From contig JBIKWH010000001.1 of NCBI GenBank assembly GCA_044356435.1, positions 1-30,708 on the forward strand: a stretch of 30,708 nucleotides of DNA, in the 5' to 3' direction. Below, in pieces: positions 1 through 30,708 of the stretch. The notes beneath the pieces were generated by a model, which searched no databases, had not been told where the DNA came from, and worked only from the letters and a program-made list of their open reading frames with translations. The DNA is from Vicinamibacterales bacterium (GTDB taxonomy: Bacteria > Acidobacteriota > Vicinamibacteria > Vicinamibacterales > UBA2999). Within the stretch, counting starts at the first letter, position 1. The number at the start of each line of letters is the position of its first letter. The position numbers and the translations under genes are program-made.

Positions 1-1500
1 GTCGCCAGCAGATGCTGACGAAGCGTGGCCACCAGGGTGTCTGTGTCAGTCGCATCCACGCCACCGCGTGACACGACGGCGGCCATCAATCTCGGTCCGA
101 GCGGCGACTGCTGCAGCACGACGGCCGCGGCGGCCACCTGCGGATGCCCGAGCAGCGCGTTCTCGATCTCGCCGACCTCGATGCGGAAGCCACGCAGCTT
201 GATCTGGTCGTCGAAGCGCCCGAGGAACTCGAGATCACCCTCGGCCCGTCGCGCCACACGGTCGCCCGTGCGGTACATTCGCGCGCCCAGCCGGGCCGCG
301 AAGGGATCGGGGATGAAGCGGTCCGCCGTCAGCGCGGGCAGGCCCACATAGCCGCGCGCCAGACCGTCGCCGCCGATGAAGAGCTCGCCCGCCACACCGA
401 CGGGCACGGGCTGGAGGGCGGCATCGAGCACATGCAATGTGGTGTTCGCAATCGGGTGGCCGATGGCGACGGCTGCGCCCGGGTTGCCCGCCACGCGGTC
501 CACGGCGGCACTCGCGTCGGCGACGCTGGACCAGATGGTCGTCTCCGTCGGTCCGTAGAGATTCCACACGCGACGGCACACCCGCGCGAGCCGGCTCGCG
601 AGCTCGAACGGTAGCGCCTCGCCGCCGCACAGCACCGTCAACGCCGGGTCGCCCGGCCAGCCGGATTCCAGCAGCATCTGCCAGGTGGCCGGCGTGGCCT
701 GCATCACCGTTGCGCCGGATTCGCGCAGCAGCGCCTGGAGGCGCACTCCGTCGCTGGCGGCCTCGCGTGTGGCGATCACGACCTGCGCGCCACACACCAG
801 CGGCAGGAAGAGTTCCAGACCCGCGATGTCGAACGAGAGCGTGGTCACGGCGAGCAGCACGTCGCCCGCGCCGAGGCCCGGCTCCCGCCGCATGGCCGTC
901 AGGAAGTTCACGAGCGCACGATGCTCGATCGCCACGCCCTTCGGCTTGCCGGTGGAGCCGGAGGTATAGAGCAGATAGGCCAGATCGCCCGACTGCGCCG
1001 CGCGCGCACTGCCGGAGTGAGCCGCGCCCGGCGGCGCGGCGCCGGGCCGCACTGCCGCGGCAGGCACCGCGTTCGGAGACGCCGCCACGGGAGCGCCCGT
1101 GCCGGAAGACACCGCACCGGAAGGCGCCGCGTCAGCAGAGAGCGCGTCGAGTGGCAGGAGTCGCGTGTCCGGGCCCGTGCGCGCCTCCCAGTCTGCCGCG
1201 AGCGTCGCCGTCGTCAGGATCATCCGTGCGCCCGAGTCTTCGACCATGTAGCGCAGCCGGTCCGCCGGAAACGCCGGATCGAGCGGCACGTAGGCCGCGC
1301 CCACGCCGTGAATCCCCAGGAGCACCGGGAGCAGCTCGATTGCGCGATCGAGATGGACGCCGACGACATCGCCAACCACAATGCCGCGGGCCGAGAGCGC
1401 GGCGGCCCATGCCGAGGCGCGGGTGAAGAGCGCCTCGTACGTCAGGCTCGCGCCGTCACAGCGGCAGGCCGCGCGGTCCGGAGATTCGGCGGCGACCGCG
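1..1500 (-). other. Adenylation domain, predicted Gly (truncated by window edge)
   Basis: Motifs AAYVPLDP, LAYLLYTSGSTGKPKG, SFDIAGLEL, MQATP, LCGGE, NLYGPTETTIWS, YRTGD, QIKLRGFRIE. Hand-extracted code DILQLGLIWK is the standard Gly signature. No insertion is seen after A8 up to the window edge. Confidence 0.88.
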
Positions 1501-4500
1501 CGCGCCAGGCTGAGCACCGTCGCGGACGACGGGTAGGGCGTGGCTGTTGCGTTCCATGTGGCGAGCGCCGTGGTTTCATCGGGCGTCAGCAGCGGCAGCG
1601 CGCCAATCGTCTGGTGCGGGTCCTCGGTCACGGCGTCGAGGATCCGCAGCAGGTGTCCGCCCATGCGGGCGATGCGTGCCTCCGCGAAGAGGTCCGTGTT
1701 GAACTCGATCCCGATGGCGAGCCCCCGCGCGGACTCCTTGAAGTTGAACGTCAGGTCCGCCTTGCTCGTGCCGTTGTGATCGAAGCAGGGCTGGCTCTCG
1801 AGGCCCTCGAGCGCCAGCGCGGACTCCTGCTGGTTCTGCAGGATCACGATCACGTCGAACACGGGCGAGCGCGAGAGGTCGCGGGGCAGATCCAGCTCAT
1901 CGACGAGGCGATCGAACGGGTAGGCCTGGTGGTCGTAGGCGGAGGTGGCCGTCGTCCGCACGGCGTCGAGCAGCCGCGTGAACGTGTCGCCGGGCCGCAC
2001 CGTGTCGCGCAGCGCCAGCATGTTCAGGTAGAAGCCGGCCTGCCCGTCCAGATCCGGATGCACGCGCCCGGCCACCGGCGTGCCCACGACGATGTCCTGC
2101 TCGCCGGTGTACCGATGGAGCAGCACCTTCACGCAGGCGCCGAGCAGCATGAAGAGCGAGACGTTGGCCGCGCGGGCCGCCGCCGACACGCGTTGCGCGG
2201 CGTCCGGTTCGAGGTGCCACGCAGCCTCGCGGCCGCGGAAGGTCTGGACGGCGGGTCTGGGCGCGTCCAGTGGAAGATCGAGCACCGGGGCGGCTCCGAG
2301 TTGCGCGAGCCAGTAGTCGCGCTGCGCACTGAGCCCGCCGGACTCCAACTGCGCCTGCTGCCAGCCCGCGTAGTCGCGATACTGCACGCGCAGTGCGGGC
2401 AGCGGCGGGGCCGCTCCGTTGCGGGCGGCCAGATAGAGCGCGGCGAGGTCGCTCCCGAGGATGCCGATGCTCACGCCGTCGCAGGCGATGTGATGCACGG
2501 TGAACAGCAGCACGTGCCGATCCGCCGCGAGACGGACGAGCGACACGCGAAGGGGCGACGCCGTGAGGTCGAACGCCGCTGCGGCGTCCTCCCGGGCCAG
2601 TTGCTGCGCGGCGGCTTCGCGATCGGGATCGGCCGTCAGGTCGATCACGCGCAGCGACACCGCGGCTGGCGGGTCCACCTGCTGCCGGGGTTCCCCGTCG
2701 ATGGTCACGATCCGTGTGCGGAGCACCTCGTGCCGCTGCACGAGCGCCGAGAGAGCGCGCTCCAGTGCCGGCACATCCAGGGGCCCGGTGAGCCGCTGGT
2801 GCAGCGGGATGTTGTAGGCCGCGGAGCCTTCAAGTTGCGTGAGCACCCAGAGCCGTCGCTGCGCGTGCGAGAGCGGGTAGCTCGCCGCGTCCGGCAGCGT
2901 CGGGATCGGGGCGTCGCTCCTGGCGTCGTGCGTGAGCGTCTCGATCAGCCGGGCCTGTGCGCGGACCGTCGGCGCCTCGAAGAGCGCCCGGAACGGCATG
3001 CGGTGACCGAAGCGCCGCTCGACCCGCGCGATGAGCTGCGTGCCAAGCAGCGAGTCGCCACCGAGGTCGGCGAAGGCGTCCGTCACGCCGATCGGGTGGA
3101 TGCCGAGCAGCGCCTCCCAGATGCCCGCGATGGCGCGTTCCGCCTCGGACTCCGGCGCCTCGAAGGCGGAGCCGGTCTCCGGCCGCGCGTGGGCGGCCGC
3201 CTGGGCGTTGTCCGCGCTGGCGGCGTCCAGCGATGGCGCGGTCGCGGATTCACCGGGCGTCGACGAGGCGTCTGCCGCGGGTTGGACCCAGCGCCGGAGT
3301 CGCGTCTGGAGGTCGCCCGCCGAGACGACGACCTGCGGCACGCCCGCGCTGAGCACGCGCTCGAAGGCGTCGCGGCATTCGGCGAGCGACATCGCGTAGC
3401 GATCGATGCTCGTCTGGAAGCCGGAATCGAAACCGCCCTCCGACTCGTTCGGCCAGCCGTCCCAGTTCGAGCTGATCCAGCGCCGGTCGCCCGTGCGCCG
3501 CCGCGCGGCGGCATAGGCGTCGAGATACCGGCTGGCCGCGGCGTACGCCGAGAGGCCGAGACCGCCGAGGATCGAGGCGTTCGAGGAGATCAGCAGGATG
3601 AAGTCGAGCGGCTCGTCCGCCAGGAGCGTGGCGAGCACCGTCGCGCCGCCTGCTTTGGGACGGAGGAGCGCGTCTACCTGCGCGGGCTCGGTGGCCTCGA
3701 TCGGATTGATGACGATCTCGCGCGCCGTCACGCCCGCCGCATGAATCACGCCATCGATGCGGCCGAAGCGCGTGCGCGCGGTGTCGAGCGCCGTGCGCAT
3801 CGCCGGCTCGTCCGCGACGTCCGCTTCGAGGACGAGCACCTCGGTGCCAGCGGCCCGCAGGCGGCGCACGGTCCGCACGGCATGCGGTTCCGCCCCGCCG
3901 ACTTGACCGACGACCAGACCGAAGTCGCCCGTGGCGGTGCCGTCGGGAGCGGGCCACGCCGCCACGTGCGCGAAGCCCGCCTGCCGGAACGCGTCGCGCC
4001 ACTCGGCCGCCCGCAGCAGTGGCGACTGCCGCGTCCGGAGGCCATCGCGGAACGCCCACCAGCCTTCGGCCAGTCCCCAGATGAAGTCCACCCAGCGCGG
4101 CGCCTGCATCGTCTCGACGATGGCGGCCACGCCGCCCGGCGCGAGCAACCGGCGCGCGTGGGTCAGCGTCTCCGGCAGGTCCGCCGTGGCGTGGAGGACG
4201 TCCAGCGCGAGCACGACATCGAACGATCCGGGCGCGAATCCCTGCGAAGCGGGATCGCGGCTGATGTCGAGCGTGCCGAAGCGCATGATCGGCGAGAGTC
4301 CCGCCGCGGCCGCGGATTGCTCGGCGCGTTGCACGAAGGTGCGGCCGATGTCGGTCGCGTGGTACTCGACGGGCAGATCCCTGAGCGCCGGCGCGAGCAC
4401 GCCCGCCAGGAGGCCGTCGCCGACGCCGATCTCGAGGACACGGAGCGTCCGGCCCCCACGCGCGCGCAGCTCGGCGAGCAGCAGCTCGCGCACCGCGCGG

Positions 4501-7500
4501 ATGTAGATGTCGCGCGTGCTGTGCGCCGCCGTGTTCGCCGCCGCCTGCTCCAGCCGCGTGGCCTCACCGTCCGGGTAGAGCACGCTGATCGCGGGAATCC
4601 GGCCCGAGAGCGCGTCCGGATAGTGGGCGACACAGTGTTCGAGCAGCTCGAACATGCCGGTGAACCGCGGGTACGCGGCGACGGCGGCGCGGTGCAGCTC
4701 CGCTGGCGGCGGAATGCTTCCGGCCGCGGCTGTGAACACCAGCCCGGTGCCCTCGCGTGCGAGCAGGCCGTCGTCCTCCAGCACCTGCCGGAAGTAGTCG
4801 CCCATGCGCGCCAGCGGCGCCACGATGCCGAGGTGCGACTTCAGCTCCGCGACGTCGAAGGTGGCCCCCGGCTGGACGCGCAGACCCGCCCTCCCCGCCA
4901 GCGCGAGGACGTGGCTCGCGCAGAGCCGGTCGATGGCCGATCCGAGCCCCGGGTAGGCGTCGATGCCCTTGATCGCGAGTGCACGCCTGGCCTCGGCGAT
5001 CGCGCCGGCAAGCCGCGCTTCCCGTGCGGCGAATGCCGTGGCGCCCGCCTTCTCCGCGTCGATGCCCGGATCGGACGCGAGCGCCGTCTCCACGGCCGAC
5101 GCGGACCGGCCGGTGAGCGCGACCTTCGCGCCATACCGGGTCGCCAGGTGCTCGGCCAGGATCAGGCCGACACCGCCGAGGCCGCCGGTGATGAGGTAAC
5201 TGCCGCCCTGCCGGATCGGTGCCCGCTGTTCCGCAGCCACGGTCACCGGCTCGAGGGCGCGGACCCAGCGGTGCCCGTGGCGCCACGCCACGGCACGCTC
5301 GCTGCCGCCGCCGATCTCGTCAACGAGCAGGCGCGTCAGGAATGCCGGGTCGTCCGCGCGCCATCCGGTGATGTCGAGCGTCCGGCACGTGACACCGGGG
5401 CGTTCCTGCGGGAGGACCATCAGCGGGCCCGCCATGGCAGCCTTGGCGGGATCGATCGGCTCCGCGCCGGTGACGTCCTCGATGAGATCCGTCACGACGA
5501 CGAGCGCGATGTCCCGCGTGGCGGCGGCGATCGCGCGACAGACTTCGAACTGACGCTGGATATCCGCGGGCGCGTCGAGTGTCGAGCAGTCGATGATGCG
5601 GACGGTGTCATCGGCGACCAGGCCAGCCGCGTCCGAGGCACTCGCGTCGACCACATCGTGGCCCTGGTCGCGCAGCGCCGCGATAAGCCGTGCGCCGACG
5701 CCGTGCGCGTCCGGCACGACGACCGTCCGCCCGGCGAAGGCGTCCGCGTCGGCGTGTGGCGGCAGGGCCCGCGTCCACGACGGGACGTAGAGCCACTGGC
5801 CGACGTCGCTCTTTCGAGCGGCTGTGATCGCGGAGGTGGGGTGCGCCGCGTCCGGCTTCGCCGGCTCCACCCAGTAGCGCTGGCGGGCGAACGGATAGCC
5901 CGGCAGCGGCACGCGTCGCCGTCGCTCGCCGCGATGCACGGCCGCCCAGTCCACCTTCGCGCCAGCCGTCCAGAGCCGCGCGAGGCCGTCGGCGAGCATG
6001 GCAGTGTCTTCCGTGGCTTCGTCCGCGTGGCGCAGCGAGCGCGCGAACACCCGGCCCGTTCCGCCGGGCTGCATGCGCACCAGCGTCGTCAGCGTGCGGC
6101 CGGGACCGGCCTCGAGGAACACCATGCCCGGGTCCTGCAGCAGTTGCTGCGCGGCGTGCGCGAACCGCACCGGCTCGCGCAGGTGCGAGGCCCAGTACGC
6201 GGGGTCGACGGCCTGCGCCGCCGTGACGGTCACTCCCGTCAGGTTCGACATCCAGAGTCGCTCGGGGGCGTGACGGGCCACACGCGAGACGCGCTCCGCG
6301 AACGCGTCGCGGATGGCGTCCATGGATCGTGAGTGGAATGCATGCGACGTCTCGAGCCGCCGCGTCTCGATGCCGCGAGCCGCCAAGGCGGTGCTCAGCC
6401 GGTCGACCGCCTCGACGGGGCCTGAGACCACCGTCCGCGCGGGCGCGTTGATCGCGGCAATCGAGAGGTCGTCGCCGAGCAGCGGCTCGAGCTCGGTGGC
6501 CCCGAGCGGCACCGCCGCCATCGCGCCGGCAGGCAGCGCGTGCATGAGCGCCGCGCGTGCCGCGACCAGCGCGAGCGCGTCTTCAAGCGCGAACACGCCG
6601 GCCAGCGTGGCCGCGACCAGCTCGCCCAGGCTGTGGCCGAGCATCGCGTACGGCTCGATGCCCCACGACATCCACAGGCGTGCCGTCGCGTATTCGATGG
6701 CAAAGAGCGCGGGCTGCGCGTAGCGCGTCGATGTCAGCGACCCGGGCGCGCCGCCGTGCAGCAGCCCTCTGATGTCGAGGCCGAGTGCCGGTTGCAGCAG
6801 CGAGGCGCAGCGGTCGATGTCCGCGCGGAAGAGCGGCTCGCGGTCGTAGAGGCCGCGCCCCATGCCCACGAACTGTGTGCCCTGCCCGGGAAACAGGAAC
6901 GCCACGCGCGGCGGCGCCCCGGTGGACCGTCCCGAGATGGACGTCGCCACGTCGGCGGACTCCAGCCGCGCCACGGCGTCGAGGCGATCGGTGGCCACGA
7001 TCACGCGCCGGTGATCGAAGGCGCGCCGGCCCTGCTGCAGCGTCCAGGCGACGTCGGCCAGTGGCACATCGGGATGCGCGCGCAGATGCGCCGCGAGGTT
7101 GATGGCCTGCTGCGCGAGCGCCTCCGCGGAGCGCGCGGAGAGCGCCAGCACCTGCGGACCGTCTGCCTCGCTCTCCGGATTGGCCGCCGGGGCTTGTTCG
7201 AGCACGACGTGCGCGTTGGTGCCTCCGATGCCGAACGCGCTCACGCCCGCGCGCCGCGGACCATCCGACTCCCACGGCCGTGCCGAGGCGTTGACGACAA
7301 ACGGCGTGGAGCTGAAATCGATCTCGGGGTTCGGCGCCGTGAAGTGCAGGCTCGGTGGGATCGCGCCGTGCTCCAGCGCGAGCACCGTCTTGATCAGCCC
7401 CGCGACGCCGGCCGCTTCGTCGAGGTGGCCGACGTTGCTCTTCACCGAGCCGATCGCGCAGAAGCCGCTGCGCGCCGTGCGCAGCCGGAAGGCCTGCGTG

Positions 7501-8527
7501 AGCGCGGCGATCTCGATCGGATCACCGACCGGCGTGCCCGTCCCGTGCGTCTCGATGTACTGAATCGAGTCCGGTTCCACGGCGGCCACCGCGAGCGCTT
7601 CGGCGATGACCTCCGCCTGACCGTCGACACTCGGCGCCGTGTAGCCCACCTTCGCCGCGCCGTCGTTGTTCACGGCCGAGCCGCGGATGATGGCGTGGAT
7701 CGTGTCGCCGCTCTCGAGCGCGTCGGTCAGCCGCTTCAGCACGACCACGCCGACGCCGTTGCCGCTCACCGTGCCCTGGGCGCGCGCGTCGAACGGGCGG
7801 CAGTGGCCGTCCGGCGAGGCGATGCCACCGGTCTCGTAGCGATAGCCGACGTGCTGCGGCACCTGGATGCCGACACCGCCGGCCAGCACCATGTCGGCGT
7901 GGTAGTCGAGCAGGCTCTGGCACGCGAGGTGAACGGCCACCAGGGACGAGGAACACGCCGTGTTGACGTTGATGCTCGGGCCCTTCAGGTCCAGCTTGTA
8001 GGAGACGCGCGTGGGCACGTAGTCCTTGTTGTTCGCAATCGAGAGCTGCACCGGCGCGACGCGCGCGAGGATGTCGGGTCGCGCGAGCAGGTTGTGCAGC
8101 AGGTAGGTGCTGAACCCGGCGCCGGCGAACACGCCGATCCGTCCCTCGAAGCCGTGCGGGTGATAGCCGGCGTGTTCGAGCGCGTGCCACGCGCACTCCA
8201 GAAAGAGCCGGTGCTGCGGGTCGGTGATCTCGGCTTCGAGCGGCGGCATGCCGAAGAAGCCGGCGTCGAACCGGTCGATGCCGTCGAGCACGCCGTTGGC
8301 TCGGACGTAGGCCGAGTCGGCGAGCGTCGCCGCGTCCACGCCTGCCGCGCGCAGGGCCTCGTCCGTGAAGCGCGTGATGCCCTCGCGTCCCTCGATCAGG
8401 AGACGCCAGTACGCGTCGAGGTCGGGCGCGCCGGGAAAGCGGCCTGCCATCCCGACGATCGCGACCGCGCGCGCGTCATCCAGCACAGCGCCATCCGGAG
8501 CGGTGTGCGCAGACCGGTGGGCGTCGC

Positions 8528-8531
<4 letters not shown>
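1..8531 (-). CDS. Hybrid PKS-NRPS, C-terminal end outside window: KS-AT-KR[cMT]-ACP-C-A(Gly)...
   Basis: Not in the ORF track because it has no stop inside the window. GTG at 8531 overlaps the TGA of the upstream NRPS (GTGA) and follows GGAAGGA at 8538-8544. Hand translation begins MSDAHRSAHTAPDGAVLDDARAVAIVGMAGRFPGAPDLDAYW. KS, AT, KR, MT, C and A motifs all fall in the same frame, and no track ORF terminates in this frame. 2843 codons to the edge, ending ...LRQHLLA in the A subdomain. Confidence 0.96.
1005..1139 (-). repeat. Degenerate in-frame 15-nt (5-aa) tandem repeat, about 9 units, in the A2-A3 loop of the Gly A domain
   Basis: Units read SADAA/PSGAV/SSGTG/APVAA/SPNAV/PAAAV/RPGAA/PPGAA/HSGSA. 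The first six each begin with an NCT codon (TCT, CCT, TCT, GCT, TCT, CCT), which is unusual for this codon bias. Confidence 0.6.
1590..2880 (-). other. Condensation domain following the PKS ACP
   Basis: YPLSHAQRRLWVL...YNIP, HHIACDGVS (H at 2495), AGFYLNMLALR, YPFDRLVDEL, SKADLTFNF. Confidence 0.9.
2950..3150 (-). other. Carrier domain (ACP) of PKS module 2
   Basis: IWEALLGIHPIGVTDAFADLGGDSLLGTQL; Ppant Ser codon at 3051-3053. Confidence 0.88.
3330..5210 (-). other. Ketoreductase catalytic subdomain, split by an inserted methyltransferase
   Basis: N-part SYLITGGLGGVG...ALTGR at about 5105-5205. C-part VLVLEADVAD...GVIHAAG...RPK...ISSNAS...SAYAAAS at about 3530-3890. Confidence 0.88.
3890..5100 (-). 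other. PKS-type C-methyltransferase domain nested in KR
   Basis: YPRFTGMFELLEHC...SVLYPDG, VLEIGVGDG (4413-4439), YHATDI, LDISRDP...FDVVLALDVLHAT, LLAPGG...IVET, WGLAEGWW. These are hallmarks of cis-AT PKS cMT domains, including the HAT histidine and the downstream Glu. Confidence 0.88.
6000..6910 (-). other. Acyltransferase, malonyl-CoA type (PKS module 2)
   Basis: FPGQG, YAQPALF, LGHSLGE (about 6624-6641), TSHAFHS (H at 6344). Confidence 0.9.
7195..8470 (-). other. Ketosynthase, NRPS-accepting hybrid type (PKS module 2)
   Basis: DPQHRLFLE, NNKDY...VSYKLDLKGPS, VNTACSSS (Cys 7953-7955), ETHGTGT, KSNVGHL, SAFGIGGTNAH. The C-H-H triad is intact. Confidence 0.93.
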
Positions 8532-23850
<15,319 letters not shown>

Positions 23851-23854
<4 letters not shown>

Positions 23855-24003
23855 GCGAGGGTGCCGGATCTGGAATGGGTGACGAATGCGGGACAGCTCC
23901 CCCCGAACCCGCCGGCAACAGAGGTTTCTGCGGTGTGAGGGGACTGCGGCAACGATATCACCTCAGCCGAAACGCGTTCAACGCGCGGACACGCCGGGAT
24001 CAC
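23851..24003 (-). CDS. Putative 50-aa bridging mini-ORF (possible translational-coupling element, may be non-functional)
   Basis: GTG at 24003 overlaps the PKS TGA (24002-24000), and TGA at 23853-23851 overlaps the NRPS GTG (23854). GGAG lies 7 nt upstream. Peptide MIPACPRVERVSAEVISLPQSPHTAETSVAGGFGGSCPAFVTHSRSGTLA. GC3 is only 35/50 and no family is recognised. Confidence 0.3.
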
Positions 24004-27000
24004 GCGGTCTCTCCCGTCTTGTCGTCGTCTGCCGCCGCGAGCAGCAGCGCGGCTTCTTCATCCGTCAGGTCTCCGACGTCGGCCAGCACGGCTTCGAGCT
24101 GCTGCCGCGCGACGGCGGCACCGAGCGCGCCGATCGTCGGCGTCTCGAAGAAGGTCGTCAGCGTCACGCGCACACCGAGCTGGTCGCGCACGCGCGAGAG
24201 CACCTGTGTCGCCAGCAGTGAATGTCCGCCGAGTTCGAAGAAATCGTCGTGAATGCCGACCTCCGCGATGCCCAGGAGCGTCTGCCAGATGCGGCAGAGC
24301 GCCTCTTCCTGTGGCGTGCCTGGCGGTGCGAACGCCACGGCGAGCGCCGGTCGCGCATGGCCGGGCCCGCGGCGATCGATCTCGGTAACGGCCTGCGCGG
24401 CCACGTCCGCGTCGCGGCGCGCGCGTGCCACCGGATCGCGCGTCGAGACGACCACCTGAGTCAGGTCGCTCGCGAGCACGCGCGCCAGCACGGCCACCGC
24501 CTCGGCGTTGCGGATGCCGGACCGCAGACTCTCCTCGCGGAGGCGCTGAAGTGCACCGGGCAGCCGCACGTCGACCGCCATGCCGGCTTCCTGCCACGTG
24601 TCCCAGTCGATGCTGACGACCCGCTTCCCCGAGGCGCGCTGCTCGTGCGCGAGCGCATCGAGCACGGCGCCGGCGGCGCAATAGTCGACCTGCCCGGCGT
24701 CGCCGAGGATCCCGGTCAGCGACGACACGAACACCATGACGTCCAGATCCGTCGAATCGAACACGCGCAGAAGGTTCAGGGCGCCCTGCACCTTCGGACG
24801 CAGGACGGCCTCGATGTCCTCGCGCGTCTTGCGCTGGAGCATGCCGCCCGCGGGGACGCCCGCCGCGTGAATCACGCCGTGCACGGGCCCGAAGCGCTGC
24901 TCCGCTTCGCGAACCGCCGTGCGGAGCGCGTCGAGATCTCCGACGTCGGCGGCCAGCATGCACACCTGCCCGCCCGCGGCCTCGATGGCCTGGATCTGCC
25001 GGATCTGCCCGGCGACCGTCGAGCCGGTGCCACCCGCCAGCGCCGCCGGCCAGGTGTCACGCGCGGGGAAGGGCGTGCGGCCAAGCAGGGAGAGGCGCGC
25101 GCCGCAGTTGGCGGCCAGGTGCGCGGCGATCACAAGGCCGACGCCCCCGAGGCCGCCGGTCACGAGATAGTGCCCGCCCGTCCGTAACGAGGTCGCGGGC
25201 GAAACGTCCGGCAGCGCCACCCGCTCGAGCGTGCGCTCGAGCCGCTGATGATTGCGATACGCGACCCACGGCGTGTCCGCGGCGGACCGCAGTTCGCGAT
25301 AGAGCCGGTCGACGAGCGCGTCGCCCGCGTGGACGGAGGCGCCGTCGTAGTCGATGCTGCGGCAGCGGATCGCGGGCAGCTCCTTCGGGACGACCAGCAC
25401 CGGGCCGGCCACCGCGGCCCGCAGCGGCACGAGACGCGGGTCGCCCGGCACGGCCTGCATGCGCGAGGACAGGACGTCGATCCGGATCTCGCCCTCGACA
25501 TCGGCCAGCGCGCGCGCCAGCCACGTCACGCTCAAGAAGCCGCACTCGAGCGCATCGCGGTCGTTGGCGTCGGGACTGTCGACGGACCACGCATGCAGCA
25601 CGCGCGTCGGCACCTGCCCAACGCGCCGGAGTTCCGCGATGAGCGCGTCGTAGTCCTCTCGGCAACCGGGCCGGAGCGCGTACTGCCGATCGCCACGACG
25701 TAGAAACGCCGCGCCGGGCGTGACGAGGACGGGCTCCGCGCCGTCGCGACGTAGGCGCGCGAGCAGCCCGGCCGCCACGGTCTCGCCGTCCAGGGCGCAG
25801 ACGAGCCACGTCTCGCCGGCAGTCTCGGTCGTGGCGTCGGCGGCGCGAGCCGGCGCGGGCGCGCTTTTCCAGACGGGCACGTGGAACCACTCGTCGAGCG
25901 GCCGTTTCGTCACGCCGTCATCGACGGTGGGCACCGCGTGGCGATCGCCGGCGGTCCCGGCGTTCGCACTCCCCGCGGCGGCTGACGAGCCCGGCACGGG
26001 CGGCTCGACCCAGTACCGCTGCCGCTCGAATGGATACGTCGGCAGCGCGAGGCGTCGCCGCTCGCGACCCGTGTCGATCGCATCCCACGCGATCTCCACA
26101 CCGGCTGCCCACAGGCGGCCGAGCGTCCGCATGAGGACGTCCTGGTCGCGCGCGCGTTCACGGGCGTGCGTCAGCGTGGGAAGGACGATCGCGTCGCCAG
26201 CAGCAGGCTGCCCGCGCGTCGCCTCGATGTCCGGCTCGGGCGCCGCCGCAAGAGCCAGCGTGCCGAGCGTGCGCCCCGGGCCGACTTCCAGCAGCACCGG
26301 GTGCGGCAACTGACGTGCGCAGGCCACACCGGCCGAGAAGAGCACGGCATGCCGCAGGTGGCGCACCCAGTACGCCGGATCGACGGCATCGGCGGCGCTG
26401 ATCCAGGTGCCGGTGACGTTCGAGATCCACGGCGTCGAGGGCGGCGTCAGCGTCACGCGCGCGACGGCCGCGCCGAACGCGCTGAGGACGGGATCCATGG
26501 ACGGCGAATGGAACGCATGCGACGTGTGGAGGTCGTGGCACTCGATCCCCCGCGACGCGCACAGGCGTTCGAGCGCCGCCACCGCCTCAGGCGGTCCGGA
26601 TGCGACGCACAACCCCGGCGCGTTGATGGCGGCAATGGTCACGCCGTCCGGCAGCAGCGCGGCCGTCTCGTCGGGCGTCGCCCGCACGGCGACCATCCGC
26701 CCGCCGGGAAGCTGCTGCATCAGCCGGCCCCGCTCCACAACGAGCGCGAGCGCGTCCTCCATCGTGAGCGTGCCAGCGACGCAGGCGGCGACGAACTCGC
26801 CGAGGCTGTGGCCGATGAGGCCGGCGGGCGTGAGGCCCCACGCGCGAAGCTGTTGGGCGAGCGCGTACTCGACGATGAAGAGCGCCGGCTGCGCGACGGC
26901 CGTCTGCGTGAGGCGCGCCGAGGCCTCGGGCGTGACGGCCTCCGCGCGCAGCAGCGCGCGCAGCTCCCCGCCGAACGAGCCGAGCCGCGCGCAGCAGGCG

Positions 27001-28649
27001 TCGACGATCGCCCGGAACTCCGGCGCGACGCCGTAGAGCCCGGCGGCCATGCCCGGCGTCTGCGCGCCCTGACCGGGGAACATGAACACGACCGACCGCG
27101 CGCGGGCGACATCGCGATCGCCGTCCCCGCGCAGCAGCGTGGCCGATGCCGCGTCGGTGCCCGGGGCCGTCACCGCGAGGCGGTAGGCAAACGCATGACG
27201 GCCGTTCTGGAGCGACCACGTCGCATCGGCGAGGTCGGTTTCAGGCGCGTCCGCGAGCGCCTGCCCGACGGCCCGTGCGTGTGCGTCGAGCGCGGCCTCG
27301 CTGCGGGCCGAAAGCACGAGCGGCGTGATCAGCCGCGCGGCCGGCCGCGCTTCCACGGGCGGTGCCTCTTCCAGGATCACGTGCGCGTTGGTGCCGCCGA
27401 TGCCGAAGGAGCTGACGCCCGCGCGGGCCGGCTTGTCACCCGCCGGCCACGCTTCCACCCGCGCGCTCACGCGGAACGGGCTGCGCGCGAGATCGAGCTG
27501 CGGGTTGGCGGCGGTGAAGTGCAGCGTCGGTGGAATCTCGCGGTGCTTCAGCGCGAGCACCGCCTTGATGAACCCGGCGACGCCCGCGGCGGTATCGAGA
27601 TGGCCGACATTGGTCTTGAGCGCGCCGAGCACGCAGGAACCAGGGACCAGGTCCGACCCCGCGAACGCCTGCGTGAGCGCGGCCACCTCGATCGGATCGC
27701 CCAGCGGCGTGCCCGTGCCGTGCGCCTCGACGTACCCGATCGACGCCGGATCCACGCCCGCGACGGCCAGGGCCTCGCTGATCACCGCGCGCTGGCCGTC
27801 GACGCTCGGCGCCGTGTAGCCGACCTTCAACGCGCCGTCGTTGTTGATGGCGGAGCCGAGCACGACCGCGTCGATCCGATCACCGTCGGCGAGCGCATCC
27901 TCGAGCCGCTTGAGGACGACGATCCCCGCGCCGCTGCCGGGCACGGTGCCCGCGGCCTGCGCGTCGAAGGCGCGGCAGTGGCCGTCGGGCGAGAGGATCA
28001 TCCCCTCTTCGTACAGGTAGCCCGCATGCTGCGGCACGCGCACGGAGACGCCGCCGGCCAGGGCGATGTCGCACTCGCCCCCGAGCAGCGCGTTGCAGGC
28101 CAGGTGCACGGCGACCAGCGATGTCGAGCACGCGGTCTGCACGGTCACACTCGGCCCGCGCAGGTTCAGCTTGTAGGAGACGCGCGTCGGCAGAAAGTCC
28201 TTGTCGTTACTGATGAGCGCCTGGAAGCCGCCGGCCGAGGCCAGCGCCTCGCGTTGCGGGATCAGGTTTGCCAGCAGATACGCGTTCATCCCCGCACCGG
28301 CGTACACGCCGATCGCGCCGCCGTAGCGCTGGGGATCGCATGCGGCATCCTCGAGCGCCTGCCACGCGCACTCCAGGAAGAGGCGATGCTGCACGTCGAG
28401 GATCTCGGCCTCCCGCGGGCTGAAGCCGAAGAGCGCCGCGTCGAACTGCTCGATGTCGTCGAGCACGGCCGCCGCCTTCACATAGTGCGGATGGCTCAGC
28501 AGTTCGGAGGCGACGCCCGCCGCGCGCAGTTGCGCGTCGCTCAGCGTGGTGATCGACTCGACCCCAGCGCGCAGGTTGCGCCAGAACACCTCCGGTGTGC
28601 GGGCACCGGGTACGCGGCAGGCGAGGCCGATGACGGCGATGCCGCTCAT
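24000..28649 (-). CDS. Type I cis-AT PKS module, 1549 aa: KS-AT(malonyl)-KR-ACP
   Basis: KS (about 27365-28640) SNDKDF, VQTACSTS (Cys 28128-28130), EAHGTGT, NVGHL. AT (about 26250-27090) GHSLGE, HAFH. KR TGGLGGVG, HAAG, VDYCAAG. Carrier DFFELGGHSLL (about 24120-24310). No DH, ER or MT. ATG overlaps the upstream TGA (ATGA). Confidence 0.96.
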   Translation of the reverse strand: MSGIAVIGLACRVPGARTPEVFWRNLRAGVESITTLSDAQLRAAGVASELLSHPHYVKAAAVLDDIEQFDAALFGFSPREAEILDVQHRLFLECAWQALEDAACDPQRYGGAIGVYAGAGMNAYLLANLIPQREALASAGGFQALISNDKDFLPTRVSYKLNLRGPSVTVQTACSTSLVAVHLACNALLGGECDIALAGGVSVRVPQHAGYLYEEGMILSPDGHCRAFDAQAAGTVPGSGAGIVVLKRLEDALADGDRIDAVVLGSAINNDGALKVGYTAPSVDGQRAVISEALAVAGVDPASIGYVEAHGTGTPLGDPIEVAALTQAFAGSDLVPGSCVLGALKTNVGHLDTAAGVAGFIKAVLALKHREIPPTLHFTAANPQLDLARSPFRVSARVEAWPAGDKPARAGVSSFGIGGTNAHVILEEAPPVEARPAARLITPLVLSARSEAALDAHARAVGQALADAPETDLADATWSLQNGRHAFAYRLAVTAPGTDAASATLLRGDGDRDVARARSVVFMFPGQGAQTPGMAAGLYGVAPEFRAIVDACCARLGSFGGELRALLRAEAVTPEASARLTQTAVAQPALFIVEYALAQQLRAWGLTPAGLIGHSLGEFVAACVAGTLTMEDALALVVERGRLMQQLPGGRMVAVRATPDETAALLPDGVTIAAINAPGLCVASGPPEAVAALERLCASRGIECHDLHTSHAFHSPSMDPVLSAFGAAVARVTLTPPSTPWISNVTGTWISAADAVDPAYWVRHLRHAVLFSAGVACARQLPHPVLLEVGPGRTLGTLALAAAPEPDIEATRGQPAAGDAIVLPTLTHARERARDQDVLMRTLGRLWAAGVEIAWDAIDTGRERRRLALPTYPFERQRYWVEPPVPGSSAAAGSANAGTAGDRHAVPTVDDGVTKRPLDEWFHVPVWKSAPAPARAADATTETAGETWLVCALDGETVAAGLLARLRRDGAEPVLVTPGAAFLRRGDRQYALRPGCREDYDALIAELRRVGQVPTRVLHAWSVDSPDANDRDALECGFLSVTWLARALADVEGEIRIDVLSSRMQAVPGDPRLVPLRAAVAGPVLVVPKELPAIRCRSIDYDGASVHAGDALVDRLYRELRSAADTPWVAYRNHQRLERTLERVALPDVSPATSLRTGGHYLVTGGLGGVGLVIAAHLAANCGARLSLLGRTPFPARDTWPAALAGGTGSTVAGQIRQIQAIEAAGGQVCMLAADVGDLDALRTAVREAEQRFGPVHGVIHAAGVPAGGMLQRKTREDIEAVLRPKVQGALNLLRVFDSTDLDVMVFVSSLTGILGDAGQVDYCAAGAVLDALAHEQRASGKRVVSIDWDTWQEAGMAVDVRLPGALQRLREESLRSGIRNAEAVAVLARVLASDLTQVVVSTRDPVARARRDADVAAQAVTEIDRRGPGHARPALAVAFAPPGTPQEEALCRIWQTLLGIAEVGIHDDFFELGGHSLLATQVLSRVRDQLGVRVTLTTFFETPTIGALGAAVARQQLEAVLADVGDLTDEEAALLLAAADDDKTGETA
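24010..24015 (-). promoter_or_regulatory. Shine-Dalgarno-like GGGAGA upstream of the GTG at 24003
   Basis: Inside the PKS terminal codons (ACG GGA GAG ACC GCG TGA), with spacing like the 8531 junction. Confidence 0.4.
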
Positions 28650-30708
28650 GACTTCTGCGGCGCTCCGTGCCGATGTTCGAGGCGGGCGCGTCGCCGATCG
28701 GCCTGGGCCGACGCGTCCAGCCGCCGTGTCGCGCGGCGATCGTCCTGCGGCGCATCCGTGGCCGGTGCGTCCTGCCCGAGATGACGGGCGAGCAGATGCA
28801 CCGTCGGATGCTGGAACAGGTCGACGAGTGTCAGGTGCGGGGCGCCGGACTTCTGCAGGCGCGCGTGGACCTGCGCGAGCATCAGCGACTGCCCGCCGAG
28901 CTCGAAGAAGTTGTCGTGCACGCCGACCCGCTCGAGGCCGAGCACCTCTTGCCAGACGGCTGCGACCCGCTGCTCATCCGCGGTCGAGGGCGCCGCGAAC
29001 GCGCTGTCCAGCCGGGGACGCTCGGTCGGCGGATCCGGCAGCGCCCTGCGATCGAGCTTGCCGTTCGGCGAAAGCGGCAGCGCCGGCAGCCACACGAAGA
29101 CCGCGGGGACCATGTAGTCCGGCAGCGTCTGTCGCAGAAAGCGGTGCAGCTCGGTGGTCGAGGGTGGCGTCCCGGTCGCGACCGCGTAGGCGATGAGACG
29201 CGCGTCGCCGCCCGTCTGCTGCGCCGGCACGACCGCCGCCTCGCGGATGCCCTCGTGCTCGGCCAAGCGGGCTTCAATCTCGCCCAGCTCGATGCGGAAC
29301 CCGCGGATCTTGACCTGATTGTCGAAGCGGCCCAGATAGACGACGTCGCCGCTGGCGCGCCAGCGCGCGCGGTCGCCGGTGCGGTACATCCGGCTTCCGG
29401 GGGGACCGAACGGATCCGGCACGAAGCGATCGGCCGTGAGGTCGGGCCGGCGGTGATAGCCGCGGCCGACGTTGACGCCGCCGATGCACAGCTCGCCGGA
29501 GACGCCGATCGGGCACGCGTGCCACGCGGCATCCACGATGTGGATCTGCGTGTTGGCGATCGGCGCGCCGATCGGCACGACGTCGAGATCCTCCGCGCTG
29601 CACGGCCACCACGTCACGTCGATGGCGGCCTCGGTGGGCCCGTAGAGGTTGTGCACGTCGGCGCCGAGTGTCGCCAGTGCCTGACGCGAGAGATCCGGCG
29701 GCAGCGCCTCGCCGCTGCAGATGACGCGGCGGAGCGACGGGAAGGCGCCCAGCTCCAGCTGCTCGAGGAACGCCCGCAGCATCGACGGCACGAAGTGCAG
29801 CGTCGTGACGCCCTCGGCGCGCATGATCCCGGCCAGATACGCCGGATCCTGATGTCCGCCCGGCTTGCAGACGACGAGCCGCGCGCCCGTCATCAGCGGC
29901 CACACGAACTCCCACACCGAGACATCGAAGCTGAACGGCGTCTTCTGCAGCACCACGTCCGAGGCGTCAAGCCGATAGGCCTTCTGCATCCAGGTGATGC
30001 GGTTGCACAGCCCGCGGTGGGTGTTCATCGCGCCCTTTGGACGGCCCGTCGAGCCGGACGTGTAGATCATGTAGGCGAGGTTCGCGGGTCCCGGCTCGCT
30101 GGCCGCCGCGCCTGCTGCCGGTGCGGCCTTCCGCCGTTCGGGCGGCGCGTTCGCCGTCAGCAGGATCGCGACGTCCGCGTCGACGAGCATGAATTCCAGG
30201 CGCTCGCGCGGATAGTCGGGGTCGAGCGGCACGTACGCGGCACCCGCCTTGAGCACGGCGAGGATGGAGACGACGAGCTCGGGCGAACGGTGCATGCAGA
30301 TGCCGACGAGCACCTCGGGTCCGGCACCGAGCGCCTGCAGCTCACGCGCGAGCGCGTCCGCGCGGTCGTGCACCTCGCGGTACGTCCACCGCGATCCCTC
30401 GAACACGACGGCGACGGCGTCAGGCGTGCGCCGCGCCTGCTCGTCGATCAGCGTGTGGATGCAGACATCCTCCGGAAACGGCGCCGCCGTGGCGTTCCAC
30501 TGCGCGAGCTGGGCGGCTTCCGCGGCCGGGAGCGGCACAAGGGAATCGACGCGGGCGGCCGGGTCGGCGCACACGGCCCGCAGGAGCGCCACGAACTGCC
30601 CCGCGATGCGTCCCGCGCTCGCCCGCTCGAAGAGCCCGGTGCTGTAGCGCAGCACGCCGCTGAGCGGATCAGCGTCGGTGATCTCGAGCGTCAGATCGAA
30701 CTGGCCTT
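28646..30708 (-). CDS. NRPS 3' portion, N-terminus outside window: [C]-A(Ser)-T
   Basis: The frame is open to the right edge (GQFDLTLEI...VLRYSTGLF is the end of a C domain), so the track start at 30655 is an internal Val. FDVSVWEF, TLHFVP, VICSGE, NLYGPTEAAIDV give code DVWHISLIDK (Ser). T domain NFFELGGQSL. Confidence 0.94.
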   Translation of the reverse strand, partial: GQFDLTLEITDADPLSGVLRYSTGLFERASAGRIAGQFVALLRAVCADPAARVDSLVPLPAAEAAQLAQWNATAAPFPEDVCIHTLIDEQARRTPDAVAVVFEGSRWTYREVHDRADALARELQALGAGPEVLVGICMHRSPELVVSILAVLKAGAAYVPLDPDYPRERLEFMLVDADVAILLTANAPPERRKAAPAAGAAASEPGPANLAYMIYTSGSTGRPKGAMNTHRGLCNRITWMQKAYRLDASDVVLQKTPFSFDVSVWEFVWPLMTGARLVVCKPGGHQDPAYLAGIMRAEGVTTLHFVPSMLRAFLEQLELGAFPSLRRVICSGEALPPDLSRQALATLGADVHNLYGPTEAAIDVTWWPCSAEDLDVVPIGAPIANTQIHIVDAAWHACPIGVSGELCIGGVNVGRGYHRRPDLTADRFVPDPFGPPGSRMYRTGDRARWRASGDVVYLGRFDNQVKIRGFRIELGEIEARLAEHEGIREAAVVPAQQTGGDARLIAYAVATGTPPSTTELHRFLRQTLPDYMVPAVFVWLPALPLSPNGKLDRRALPDPPTERPRLDSAFAAPSTADEQRVAAVWQEVLGLERVGVHDNFFELGGQSLMLAQVHARLQKSGAPHLTLVDLFQHPTVHLLARHLGQDAPATDAPQDDRRATRRLDASAQADRRRARLEHRHGAPQKS

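What the first reader, a model, noticed from the sequence alone, without database searches (positions are those of the whole stretch)
1..30708. Apparently uncharacterised hybrid assembly line predicting a heavily methylated peptide with two statine-like units
Seen: four collinear megasynthase genes giving A(Ser)-PKS(KR)-A(Tyr)-A(Thr)+OMT-A(Dab-like)+NMT-A(Thr)-PKS(cMT,KR)-A(Gly), with no E domain. Established: KS-AT-KR modules without DH placed after an aminoacyl module make gamma-amino-beta-hydroxy acids (statine class, e.g. the alpha-methyl unit made by the bleomycin PKS BlmVIII). Inference: the product segment is Ser-CH(OH)CH2-Tyr-OMeThr-NMeDab-Thr-CH(OH)CH(CH3)-Gly. I do not recognise this order from known clusters. 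Two hydroxyethylene isosteres four residues apart would suit a protease-inhibitor-like scaffold, but that activity is speculation.
Basis: partly seen in the sequence, partly recalled or inferred. Interest (0 to 1): 0.85.

Follow-up and report, generated by a model that had tools for sequence, protein, structure and literature searches.

The report
Middle of an orphan acidobacterial PKS-NRPS line

Summary
Four collinear minus-strand genes encode (C)-A(Ser)-T | KS-AT-KR-ACP | C-A(Tyr)-T-C-A(Thr)/O-MT-T-C-A(Dab-like)/N-MT-T-C-A(Thr)-T | KS-AT-cMT-KR-ACP-C-A(Gly). There is no E domain in the window.

The window is a whole contig of a 67%-complete Vicinamibacterales (Acidobacteriota) MAG, and it is only part of the line. 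Other contigs of the MAG, joined by independent public contigs, add:
- Upstream: FAAL-ACP plus five PKS modules, and a P-loop kinase-like gene.
- Downstream: Val, Ile/Val plus an E domain, a second Dab, then A(Val, MT-interrupted)-T-TE.
- After the TE gene: an ectB-type Dab transaminase, a methyltransferase and a PPTase.

The predicted product is therefore a cationic, methylated lipo-polyketide decapeptide with two gamma-amino-beta-hydroxy acid units, not an eight-unit peptide.

No named protein is a close full-length match (largely 37-63% identical, usually over about half the query). Syntenic relatives occur only on two metagenome contigs, at roughly 54-74% identity. One of them carries DH and ER in the second PKS module, so that hydroxyl is not conserved across the family.

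Near-identical DNA occurs in at least 17 lake and river runs. Three river metatranscriptomes also hold pieces of it.

Verdict: a new member of a known kind, of moderate interest. MIBiG could not be run. The scan's other notes on this genome come from this same window; nothing comparable was noted on other DNA.

The parts
28646..30706 (-). Gene G, 3' part (686 of 1111 aa): end of C, A(Ser), T
   Evidence: Pfam. Code DVWHISLIDK. The full gene of 1111 aa is on the 116-kb JGI contig. Its first 421 aa lie on MAG contig C272.
29057..30445 (-). A domain, Ser code
   Evidence: AMP-binding plus AMP-binding_C at residues 88-550; code.
24000..28649 (-). Gene H (1549 aa): KS-AT-psiKR-KR-ACP, no DH or ER
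   Evidence: Pfam. Motifs TACSTS, HGTGT, GHSLG, HAFH and TGGLGGVG.
24588..25175 (-). KR of gene H (makes the beta-hydroxyl of the Ser-derived unit)
   Evidence: PF08659 at residues 1159-1354, E 8e-51. Rossmann, HAAG and SS..Y motifs.
8528..23854 (-). Gene I (5108 aa): four NRPS modules, C-A-T x4, no E domain
   Evidence: Pfam; motif positions.
20810..22240 (-). A domain, Tyr code DASTIAAVCK
16685..19057 (-). A domain, Thr code DFWNIGMVHK, interrupted between A8 and A9
   Evidence: A8 at residue 1996 and A9 at 2360, against about 70 aa in uninterrupted domains.
16820..17677 (-). FkbM-type O-methyltransferase insertion (type II, Ser/Thr side chain)
   Evidence: PF05050. TIGR01444 at 93.7 bits, cut-off 37.7. 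All six type II motifs of PMC8341866 found at residues 2095-2286, two of them with slightly loosened patterns.
12155..14944 (-). A domain, code DIWEMTADDK (Dab-like), interrupted between A8 and A9
   Evidence: A8 at 3370 and A9 at 3875.
12275..13567 (-). Backbone N-methyltransferase insertion (type I)
   Evidence: PF08242. Five type I motifs at residues 3502-3691, including SVVQYFP and NEMTRFRY, one with a loosened pattern (motifs from PMC8341866).
8954..10423 (-). A domain, Thr code DFWNVGMVHK
3..8531 (-). Gene J, first 2843 of 2992 aa: KS-AT-(KR start)-cMT-(KR rest)-ACP-C-A(Gly)
   Evidence: Pfam. The full-length protein P0157 is identical over the shared part and bridges to MAG contig C359.
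6084..6899 (-). AT of gene J, HAFH (malonyl type), so the alpha-methyl comes from the cMT
3963..4481 (-). C-methyltransferase
   Evidence: PF08242 and PF13489 at residues 1351-1523; VLEIGVGDG at residue 1365.
5097..5219 (-). KR Rossmann start (TGGLGGVG...ALTGR), separated from the rest of the KR by the cMT
   Evidence: 479 aa from TGGLGGVG to GVIHAAG, against 94 aa in gene H.
3453..3908 (-). Remainder of the KR (HAAG, K, SS..Y)
   Evidence: PF08659 at residues 1542-1693, profile positions 32-178 of 180.
1563..2882 (-). C domain after the PKS ACP
   Evidence: PF00668, E 5e-111; HHIACDG.
3..1499 (-). A domain, Gly code DILQLGLIWK, cut in A9/A10 by the contig end
   Evidence: The 12 missing residues, TLPDYMVPGAFA, are supplied by P0157.

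Best explanation
The window holds modules 6 to 12 of one collinear, 17-module hybrid type I PKS / NRPS assembly line. The line spans about 79 kb and 12 megasynthase genes plus accessory genes, and belongs to an uncultured freshwater Vicinamibacterales bacterium (Acidobacteriota).

Inferred course of synthesis:
1. A FAAL loads a fatty acid.
2. Five PKS modules extend it: KR; DH-cMT-KR; cMT-KR; KR; DH-KR.
3. Ser is added and extended by malonate with ketoreduction, giving a 4-amino-3,5-dihydroxypentanoate unit.
4. Tyr, O-methyl-Thr, N-methyl-Dab and Thr follow.
5. The Thr is extended by malonate with C-methylation and ketoreduction, giving a 4-amino-3,5-dihydroxy-2-methylhexanoate unit.
6. Gly, Val, D-Ile/Val, Dab and (probably N-methyl) Val follow.
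7. A TE releases the chain, by hydrolysis or macrocyclisation.

Dab is supplied by an ectB-type transaminase encoded next to the TE gene.

What is shown: domain order, domain integrity at motif level, gene linkage, conservation in relatives, and occurrence in nature. What is inferred: substrate identities, collinear use of every module, stereochemistry, release mode and biological activity. My best guess for activity is a membrane-active cationic lipopeptide; protease inhibition is not excluded.
For: Domain order and motifs. Specificity codes.

Linkage of MAG contigs:
- C96 -> C407 -> C272 through Logan contig L096.
- C359 -> C147 -> C173 -> C4 through JGI, ENA and Logan contigs L097-L099, at 99.8-100% identity.
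- C272 -> window, from the gene table of the 116-kb contig: 421 + about 4 + 686 = 1111 aa.
- Window -> C359, from the full-length 2992-aa protein.

Neighbouring content:
- Upstream and downstream domains.
- The 4118-aa gene rebuilt.
- ectB equivalog at 622.7 bits, cut-off 552.2.
- TEII and MbtH upstream; HetI-type PPTase downstream.

Conservation: syntenic relatives with conserved codes, including DLWEMTADDK with N-MT, DFWNVGMVHK and DILQLGLIWK.

Occurrence: the same sequence is found in at least 17 DNA runs of at least 12 studies, and pieces of it in 3 RNA libraries.

Chemistry: the NRPS-then-PKS(KR) route to 3-hydroxy-4-amino acids is the accepted proposal for didemnin, thalassospiramide, hapalosin, burkholdac and nosperin (PMC12081711).
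Against: - Nothing chemical was observed.
- The Dab assignment rests on my recollection of DIWELTADDK-type codes plus the ectB neighbour. I found no paper in the library that holds that code.
- The KR of the second PKS module is split by the cMT, so its activity is not certain, although the arrangement is conserved in a 60% identical relative.
- Two upstream modules lack an AT, and no trans-AT was seen.
- PMC12081711 notes that the KR route to statine units has not been verified experimentally, and that pepstatin uses another route.
- The RNA-library pieces may be DNA carry-over.
- Membership of the contig in this MAG rests on binning, plus linkage to C4.
Confidence: 0.75

Rival explanations
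1. One reading: the eight units in the window are essentially the whole product, a methylated peptide whose two hydroxy units make it a protease inhibitor.
For: The segment prediction itself is sound. Statine-type units do occur in protease inhibitors such as pepstatin, and thalassospiramides carry the same Ser-derived unit (PMC12081711, PMC3705361).
Against: The first gene starts inside a C domain and the last ends inside an A domain. Ten further modules, an E domain and the TE lie on linked contigs. A sister cluster has DH and ER in the second PKS module. Two Dab residues and a long acyl-polyketide tail point at least as much to a membrane-active lipopeptide.
Confidence: 0.05
2. The line is real but not strictly collinear, or some domains are dead, so the product departs from the prediction. 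Possibilities: the split KR of gene J is inactive (beta-keto instead of hydroxyl), the AT-less modules are skipped or used iteratively, or the Dab-like domains load Dap or Orn.
For: Split KR. AT-less and AT-stub modules with no trans-AT found. The Dab code is not documented in the papers searched. Pass-back and module multitasking are documented for thalassospiramide (PMC12081711).
Against: All catalytic motifs checked are present. The split-KR layout is conserved at 60% identity. Codes are conserved in relatives. ectB sits in the cluster.
Confidence: 0.17
3. It is a cluster for an already known compound that these tools cannot recognise, since no MIBiG comparison was possible.
For: No MIBiG or antiSMASH comparison could be run. 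Each structural element (Ser-derived gamma-amino acid, O-Me-Thr, N-methyl residues, Dab) is known in some natural product.
Against: No named protein comes close over full length; named hits are largely 37-63% identical, usually over about half the query. No ortholog was found in 40 relatives or in 400 genomes of the phylum. Literature searches gave nothing. In a published survey, acidobacterial NRPS/PKS families held no MIBiG clusters (PMC8692599).
Confidence: 0.05

Closest known systems
NRPS-then-PKS(KR) pairs that build 3-hydroxy-4-amino (statine-type) acids: didemnin, thalassospiramide, hapalosin, burkholdac, nosperin (PMC12081711). Thalassospiramides carry 4-amino-3,5-dihydroxypentanoic acid (PMC3705361).
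   Same: An aminoacyl module is followed by KS-AT-KR-ACP without DH or ER, then a C domain. The first pair here (Ser + malonate + KR) predicts exactly the ADPA unit of the thalassospiramides.
   Different: There are two such pairs in one line, in a much larger FAAL-primed assembly line from Acidobacteriota. No sequence relationship closer than generic PKS similarity was seen. No sign of the pass-back logic was tested.
Bleomycin BlmVIII-type module KS-AT-cMT-KR-ACP after an aminoacyl module
   Same: The same domain set, and the same predicted outcome: an alpha-methyl-beta-hydroxy-gamma-amino acid made from malonate plus SAM.
   Different: Here the cMT sits inside the KR, between the Rossmann start and the rest. 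The upstream amino acid is Thr. BlmVIII itself was not compared.
Family 2a interrupted A domains, A8-Ms(O,Ser/Thr)-A9, type II M domain; representative KtzH of kutzneride. FrsG acts on Thr (PMC8341866).
   Same: Insertion between A8 and A9. All six published type II motifs are present (two matched with slightly loosened patterns), as is the FkbM family signature.
   Different: The substrate code is Thr rather than Ser. The phylum (Acidobacteriota) is not among the five phyla that the survey lists as common hosts. Activity was not tested.
Family 1 interrupted A domains, A8-Mb-A9, backbone N-methyltransferase type I (PMC8341866).
   Same: Insertion site and five type I motifs.
   Different: It sits on a Dab-like A domain. 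Whether it methylates the alpha-amine or the side-chain amine cannot be told from sequence.
Orphan giant NRPS/PKS clusters of uncultured Acidobacteriota, including Vicinamibacterales (PMC8692599).
   Same: Same phylum and order, and the same kind of very large hybrid megasynthase locus known only from metagenomes with no MIBiG relative.
   Different: This one comes from lake and river plankton rather than soil, and from a small genome (about 3.7 Mb estimated). The published clusters were not compared by sequence.

Membership tests
Modular type I PKS / NRPS hybrid assembly line | KS with Cys-His-His, AT with GHSxG, KR with Rossmann motif and Ser/Tyr/Lys, and carrier domains with the phosphopantetheine Ser | tested here: met
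   Pfam; motifs.
Modular type I PKS / NRPS hybrid assembly line | C domains with HHxxxD, and A domains with the A3-A10 core motifs | tested here: met
   Two C domains have HHVVCDQ / HHIVSDD variants, with the catalytic His pair present (read).
Modular type I PKS / NRPS hybrid assembly line | Loading and release functions plus accessory genes (PPTase, MbtH, TEII) in one locus | tested here: met
   FAAL-ACP at the start, TE at the end, and TEII, MbtH and PPTase in the flanks. Linkage.
Statine-type unit-forming NRPS-PKS pair | A T domain of an aminoacyl module directly followed by KS-AT-KR-ACP without DH or ER, then a C domain | tested here: met
   Both pairs (gene G to H, and gene I module 4 to gene J).
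Statine-type unit-forming NRPS-PKS pair | A product that carries a 3-hydroxy-4-amino acid | not testable with these tools
   No chemistry is available. PMC12081711 notes that the KR route is proposed but not verified.
Interrupted A domain family 2a (O-methylation of Ser/Thr) | M domain between A8 and A9 with type II motifs i-vi | tested here: met
   A8 at residue 1996 and A9 at 2360. Six motifs at 2095-2286, two of them with one or two substitutions. TIGR01444 above its cut-off.
Interrupted A domain family 1 (backbone N-methylation) | M domain between A8 and A9 with type I motifs | tested here: met
   A8 at residue 3370 and A9 at 3875. Five motifs at 3502-3691, one with Pro in place of Asn/Ser.
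Dab-incorporating NRPS module | An A-domain code of the Dab type, and a Dab supply gene in the cluster | tested here: inconclusive
   The code DIWEMTADDK occurs twice. An ectB equivalog above cut-off lies next to the TE gene. However, the reference code is from memory, no paper holding it was found, and there is no assay.
A characterised (MIBiG) gene cluster | Same module order and high identity to a cluster with a known product | not testable with these tools
   No MIBiG is available here. By proxy, no named protein is a close full-length relative, and the literature searches gave nothing.

The most novel reading that the evidence does not exclude
The line, conserved in at least three diverged uncultured lineages and carried by a cosmopolitan small-genome lake and river Vicinamibacterales, makes the first member of a structurally new family. 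The members would be Dab-containing lipo-polyketide peptides, methylated on O, N and C, with one or two statine-type units. They may be further modified by the P-loop kinase-like protein embedded in the PKS operon. No characterised compound or cluster corresponds to it.
Probability: 0.55. Interest if true: 0.5.

Novelty: new member of a known kind. Interest (0 to 1): 0.4.

Why it matters
No assembly-line product of a Vicinamibacterales bacterium turned up in my literature searches, and very few metabolites of Acidobacteriota have been confirmed experimentally. A complete, linkable, about 80-kb line would be a concrete target for synthetic refactoring or for mass-spectrometric search in lake water. 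It recurs nearly unchanged in many lakes and rivers and may be transcribed there. It also offers test cases for enzymology:
- A Thr-specific O-methylating interrupted A domain.
- An N-methylating Dab module.
- A ketoreductase split by a nested C-methyltransferase.
- A kinase-like gene inside a PKS operon.

It does not change any concept. Orphan hybrid clusters of this size in uncultured Acidobacteriota are already documented (PMC8692599).

Tried and rejected
- Exact end-overlaps between the window and other MAG contigs: none found. Linkage had to come from public contigs and full-length proteins instead.
- Scan of JGI metagenome contigs with the Gly A domain: only relatives of at most 53% identity, because records of the window's own genome are left out. 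It did not extend the contig.
- DNA of the 116-kb, 62-kb and 44-kb contigs could not be fetched (sample files too large). Only their gene tables were usable.
- The 321-aa gene as a possible trans-AT for the AT-less modules: rejected. It has a P-loop kinase-like fold and no acyltransferase signal.
- Search of 40 relatives with the first PKS gene, and of 400 phylum genomes with the O-MT-interrupted A-domain segment (A8 to T): no ortholog. Only 42-51% identical domains of the same type in 12 genomes.
- Literature searches for a compound with O-methylthreonine plus Dab plus polyketide, for characterised acidobacterial NRPS/PKS products, and for Vicinamibacterales clusters: nothing corresponding.
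- Literature and supplement look-up of the Dab-type code: not found.
- Expression: pieces at 99-100% identity in three river metatranscriptome assemblies.
- KR stereochemistry (LDD / Trp rules): the motifs are ambiguous in both KRs, so no call was made.
Full report
**What is in the window**

The window is 71-73% G+C. It carries four long ORFs, all on the minus strand: 28646-30706 (open at its 5' end), 24000-28649, 8528-23854 and 3-8531 (open at its 3' end). Two junctions are 4-nt stop/start overlaps and one is a 145-nt gap.

Pfam gives the following domain order, with E-values between 1e-40 and 1e-130:
- Gene G: end of C, A, T.
- Gene H: KS-AT-psiKR-KR-ACP.
- Gene I: C-A-T, C-A(FkbM MT)-T, C-A(Methyltransf_12)-T, C-A-T.
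- Gene J: KS-AT-cMT-KR-ACP-C-A.

I aligned the A-domain cores and read the ten specificity positions from the A4, A5 and A10 landmarks. The codes, with residue assignments from my knowledge of Stachelhaus codes, are:
- DVWHISLIDK (Ser)
- DASTIAAVCK (Tyr)
- DFWNIGMVHK (Thr)
- DIWEMTADDK (Dab-like)
- DFWNVGMVHK (Thr)
- DILQLGLIWK (Gly)

PMC12283262 lists DFWNIGMVHK among Thr codes, including those for N-Me and N,O-diMe-Thr.

Both ATs have GHSLG and HAFH, the malonyl type. The alpha-methyl group of the second ketide must therefore come from the cMT. Neither an E-domain motif nor a dual C/E motif occurs in the window's genes.

**The methyltransferase insertions**

In the first Thr module, A8 and A9 lie 364 aa apart, against about 70 aa in uninterrupted domains. 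The insert carries all six motifs that PMC8341866 gives for type II M domains, which O-methylate Ser/Thr side chains (family 2a; representative KtzH). Two of the motifs have one or two substitutions. The insert also scores above the cut-off for the FkbM family.

In the Dab-like module, A8 and A9 are 505 aa apart. That insert carries five type I motifs, which mark backbone N-methylation (family 1). O-methyl-Thr and an N-methylated diamino acid are therefore well-founded predictions, although neither activity was tested.

**The window is not the whole system**

The window is an entire contig (C360) of a 2.5-Mb, 480-contig MAG that is 67% complete. The exact sequence of gene H also lies on a 116-kb JGI contig. 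Other contigs of the MAG carry NRPS/PKS pieces. Independent public contigs join them at 99.8-100% identity:
- C96 -> C407 -> C272, through a Logan contig.
- C359(-) -> C147(-) -> C173(-) -> C4, through JGI, ENA and Logan contigs.

C272 ends in the C domain that the window's first gene continues. The arithmetic fits the 116-kb contig's gene table: 421 + about 4 + 686 residues equals the 1111-aa gene listed there. The full-length form of gene J (2992 aa) is identical over the shared 2842 residues. It supplies the 12 residues missing between the window and C359.

The locus reads as follows:
- Divergent upstream genes: TEII, MbtH, a 119-aa ORF and a ParA-like ATPase.
- FAAL-ACP-KS-AT-KR-ACP (2202 aa).
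- KS-DH-cMT-KR-ACP without AT (1855 aa).
- KS-AT stub-cMT-KR-ACP (1841 aa).
- KS-AT-KR-ACP (1566 aa).
- A 321-aa ORF.
- KS-DH-KR-ACP without AT (1388 aa).
- The four window genes.
- C-A-T-C-A-T-E-C-A-T-C (4118 aa).
- A(MT between A2 and A3)-T-TE (1145 aa).
- An ectB-type diaminobutyrate-2-oxoglutarate transaminase (TIGR02407, 622.7 bits against a cut-off of 552.2).
- A free-standing methyltransferase.
- A HetI-type PPTase.

The downstream codes are DALWLGGTFK (Val), DAFFMGVTFK (Ile/Val, followed by the E domain), DIWEMTADDK again, and DAFWLGGTFK (Val).

The window therefore covers modules 6 to 12 of 17. The statement 'no E domain' holds only inside it.

**Most likely mechanism**

Read collinearly, the line primes with a fatty acid and adds five ketide units bearing hydroxyls, two C-methyl groups and two double bonds. 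It then builds Ser-(C2, OH)-Tyr-OMeThr-NMeDab-Thr-(C2, alpha-Me, OH)-Gly-Val-D-Ile/Val-Dab-(Me)Val, and releases the chain through the TE.

The two aminoacyl-then-KS-AT-KR-ACP pairs are of the kind proposed to make 3-hydroxy-4-amino acids in didemnin, thalassospiramide, hapalosin, burkholdac and nosperin (PMC12081711). The first pair predicts the 4-amino-3,5-dihydroxypentanoate known from thalassospiramides (PMC3705361). The same paper cautions that this KR route has not been verified experimentally, and that pepstatin makes statine differently.

The Dab assignment is supported by the ectB gene and by the two acidic pocket residues. My reference code is from memory, and I could not find it in the papers searched.

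Two Dab residues and a long acyl-polyketide tail make a cationic, amphiphilic lipopeptide. Neither can be tested here.

**Relatives and occurrence**

- No named protein comes close over full length. The best named hits are generic PKS/NRPS proteins of Paenibacillus, Thermoanaerobaculia, Longimicrobium, Gemmatimonadota, Streptomyces and myxobacteria. They are largely 37-63% identical, usually over only part of the query.
- Two syntenic relatives exist, both on metagenome contigs.
  - One is a 44-kb ENA contig, 54%, 65% and 60% identical for genes H, I (module-2 segment) and J. It has the same gene order, including a 312-aa counterpart of the 321-aa ORF.
  - The other is a 98-kb JGI contig, about 64-74% identical for genes I and K. 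Gene J aligns only piecewise, at 33-69%. Its A-domain codes are conserved, but its second PKS module carries DH and ER between KR and ACP. The unit there should be reduced, so the second hydroxyl is not invariant in the family.
- Four species of the same genus and 36 other relatives have no ortholog.
- Of 400 other genomes sampled across the phylum, 12 have an A domain interrupted in the same way, at 42-51% identity. None of these is in the same family.
- RpoB is 98% identical to a Vicinamibacterales MAG and 85-91% identical to others.
- Near-identical DNA is held by at least 17 lake, river and freshwater metagenome runs of at least 12 studies. Three river metatranscriptome assemblies hold scattered pieces of 200-600 nt at 99-100% identity. 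That suggests transcription in situ but does not prove it.

**Comparison with what is known, and verdict**

Every element is of a known kind:
- Hybrid PKS/NRPS logic.
- Statine-type pairs.
- Interrupted A domains, of families 1 and 2a inside the window and probably family 4 just outside it.
- A cMT-bearing PKS module.
- FAAL priming.
- A Dab supply gene.

Very large orphan NRPS/PKS loci in uncultured Vicinamibacterales, without MIBiG relatives, are on record (PMC8692599). What is new is the particular order, the host lineage and the habitat. I file it as a new member of a known kind, with moderate interest. It is a credible discovery target, not a conceptual surprise.

The main gap is that MIBiG / BiG-FAM could not be queried. 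The main uncertainties about the product are whether the cMT-split KR is active, how the AT-less modules are used, and whether the Dab-like domains really load Dab.

The earlier notes of this scan on this genome all come from the same window. No comparable finding on other DNA was returned.

Noticed in passing
MAG contig C272 (locus L090) 6494-7459, plus strand; outside the window: A 321-aa gene is wedged between two PKS genes with overlapping stops. It has no Pfam family above cut-off. It shows weak P-loop kinase signals (AAA_33, thymidylate kinase), and its predicted structure is nearest to KTI12, APS, shikimate and dTMP kinases. A 312-aa counterpart sits at the same place in the ENA relative cluster. 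A kinase-like protein inside a PKS operon is unusual, and its substrate is unknown.
   Followed up: partly
window 3453-5219, minus strand (gene J residues about 1105-1693): The KR is split. The Rossmann start (TGGLGGVG...ALTGR) lies 479 aa before GVIHAAG, with the whole cMT between them; in gene H the distance is 94 aa. The same layout occurs in the 60% identical ENA relative. The JGI relative instead has the cMT in front of an intact KR, plus DH and ER.
   Followed up: partly
MAG contigs C407 and C272 (loci L089 and L090); outside the window: Two upstream PKS modules (the 1855-aa and 1388-aa genes) have no AT domain, and a third has only a 110-aa AT stub. No trans-AT gene was seen in the flanks listed.
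   Followed up: no
MAG contig C173 (locus L093) 404-3838, minus strand; outside the window: The last module is split between two genes (C | A-T-TE). Its A domain (Val code DAFWLGGTFK) has a methyltransferase between A2 and A3. PMC8341866 classes this site as family 3 (S-methylation) or family 4 (backbone N-methylation). With a Val code, N-methylation is the likely reading.
   Followed up: partly
locus L097 7271-8101, minus strand; outside the window: A free-standing 277-aa methyltransferase follows the Dab transaminase gene. Its best family match is the daptide-type amine methyltransferase, but the score is below the cut-off (112.7 against 175 bits). Its target in this pathway is unknown.
   Followed up: no
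I did not examine it.
   Followed up: no
whole window; public runs: Near-identical sequence occurs in lake, river and freshwater metagenomes from at least 12 studies, while four other species of the same genus lack the cluster. That suggests a widespread single lineage carrying an accessory cluster that amounts to about 2% of an estimated 3.7-Mb genome.
   Followed up: partly
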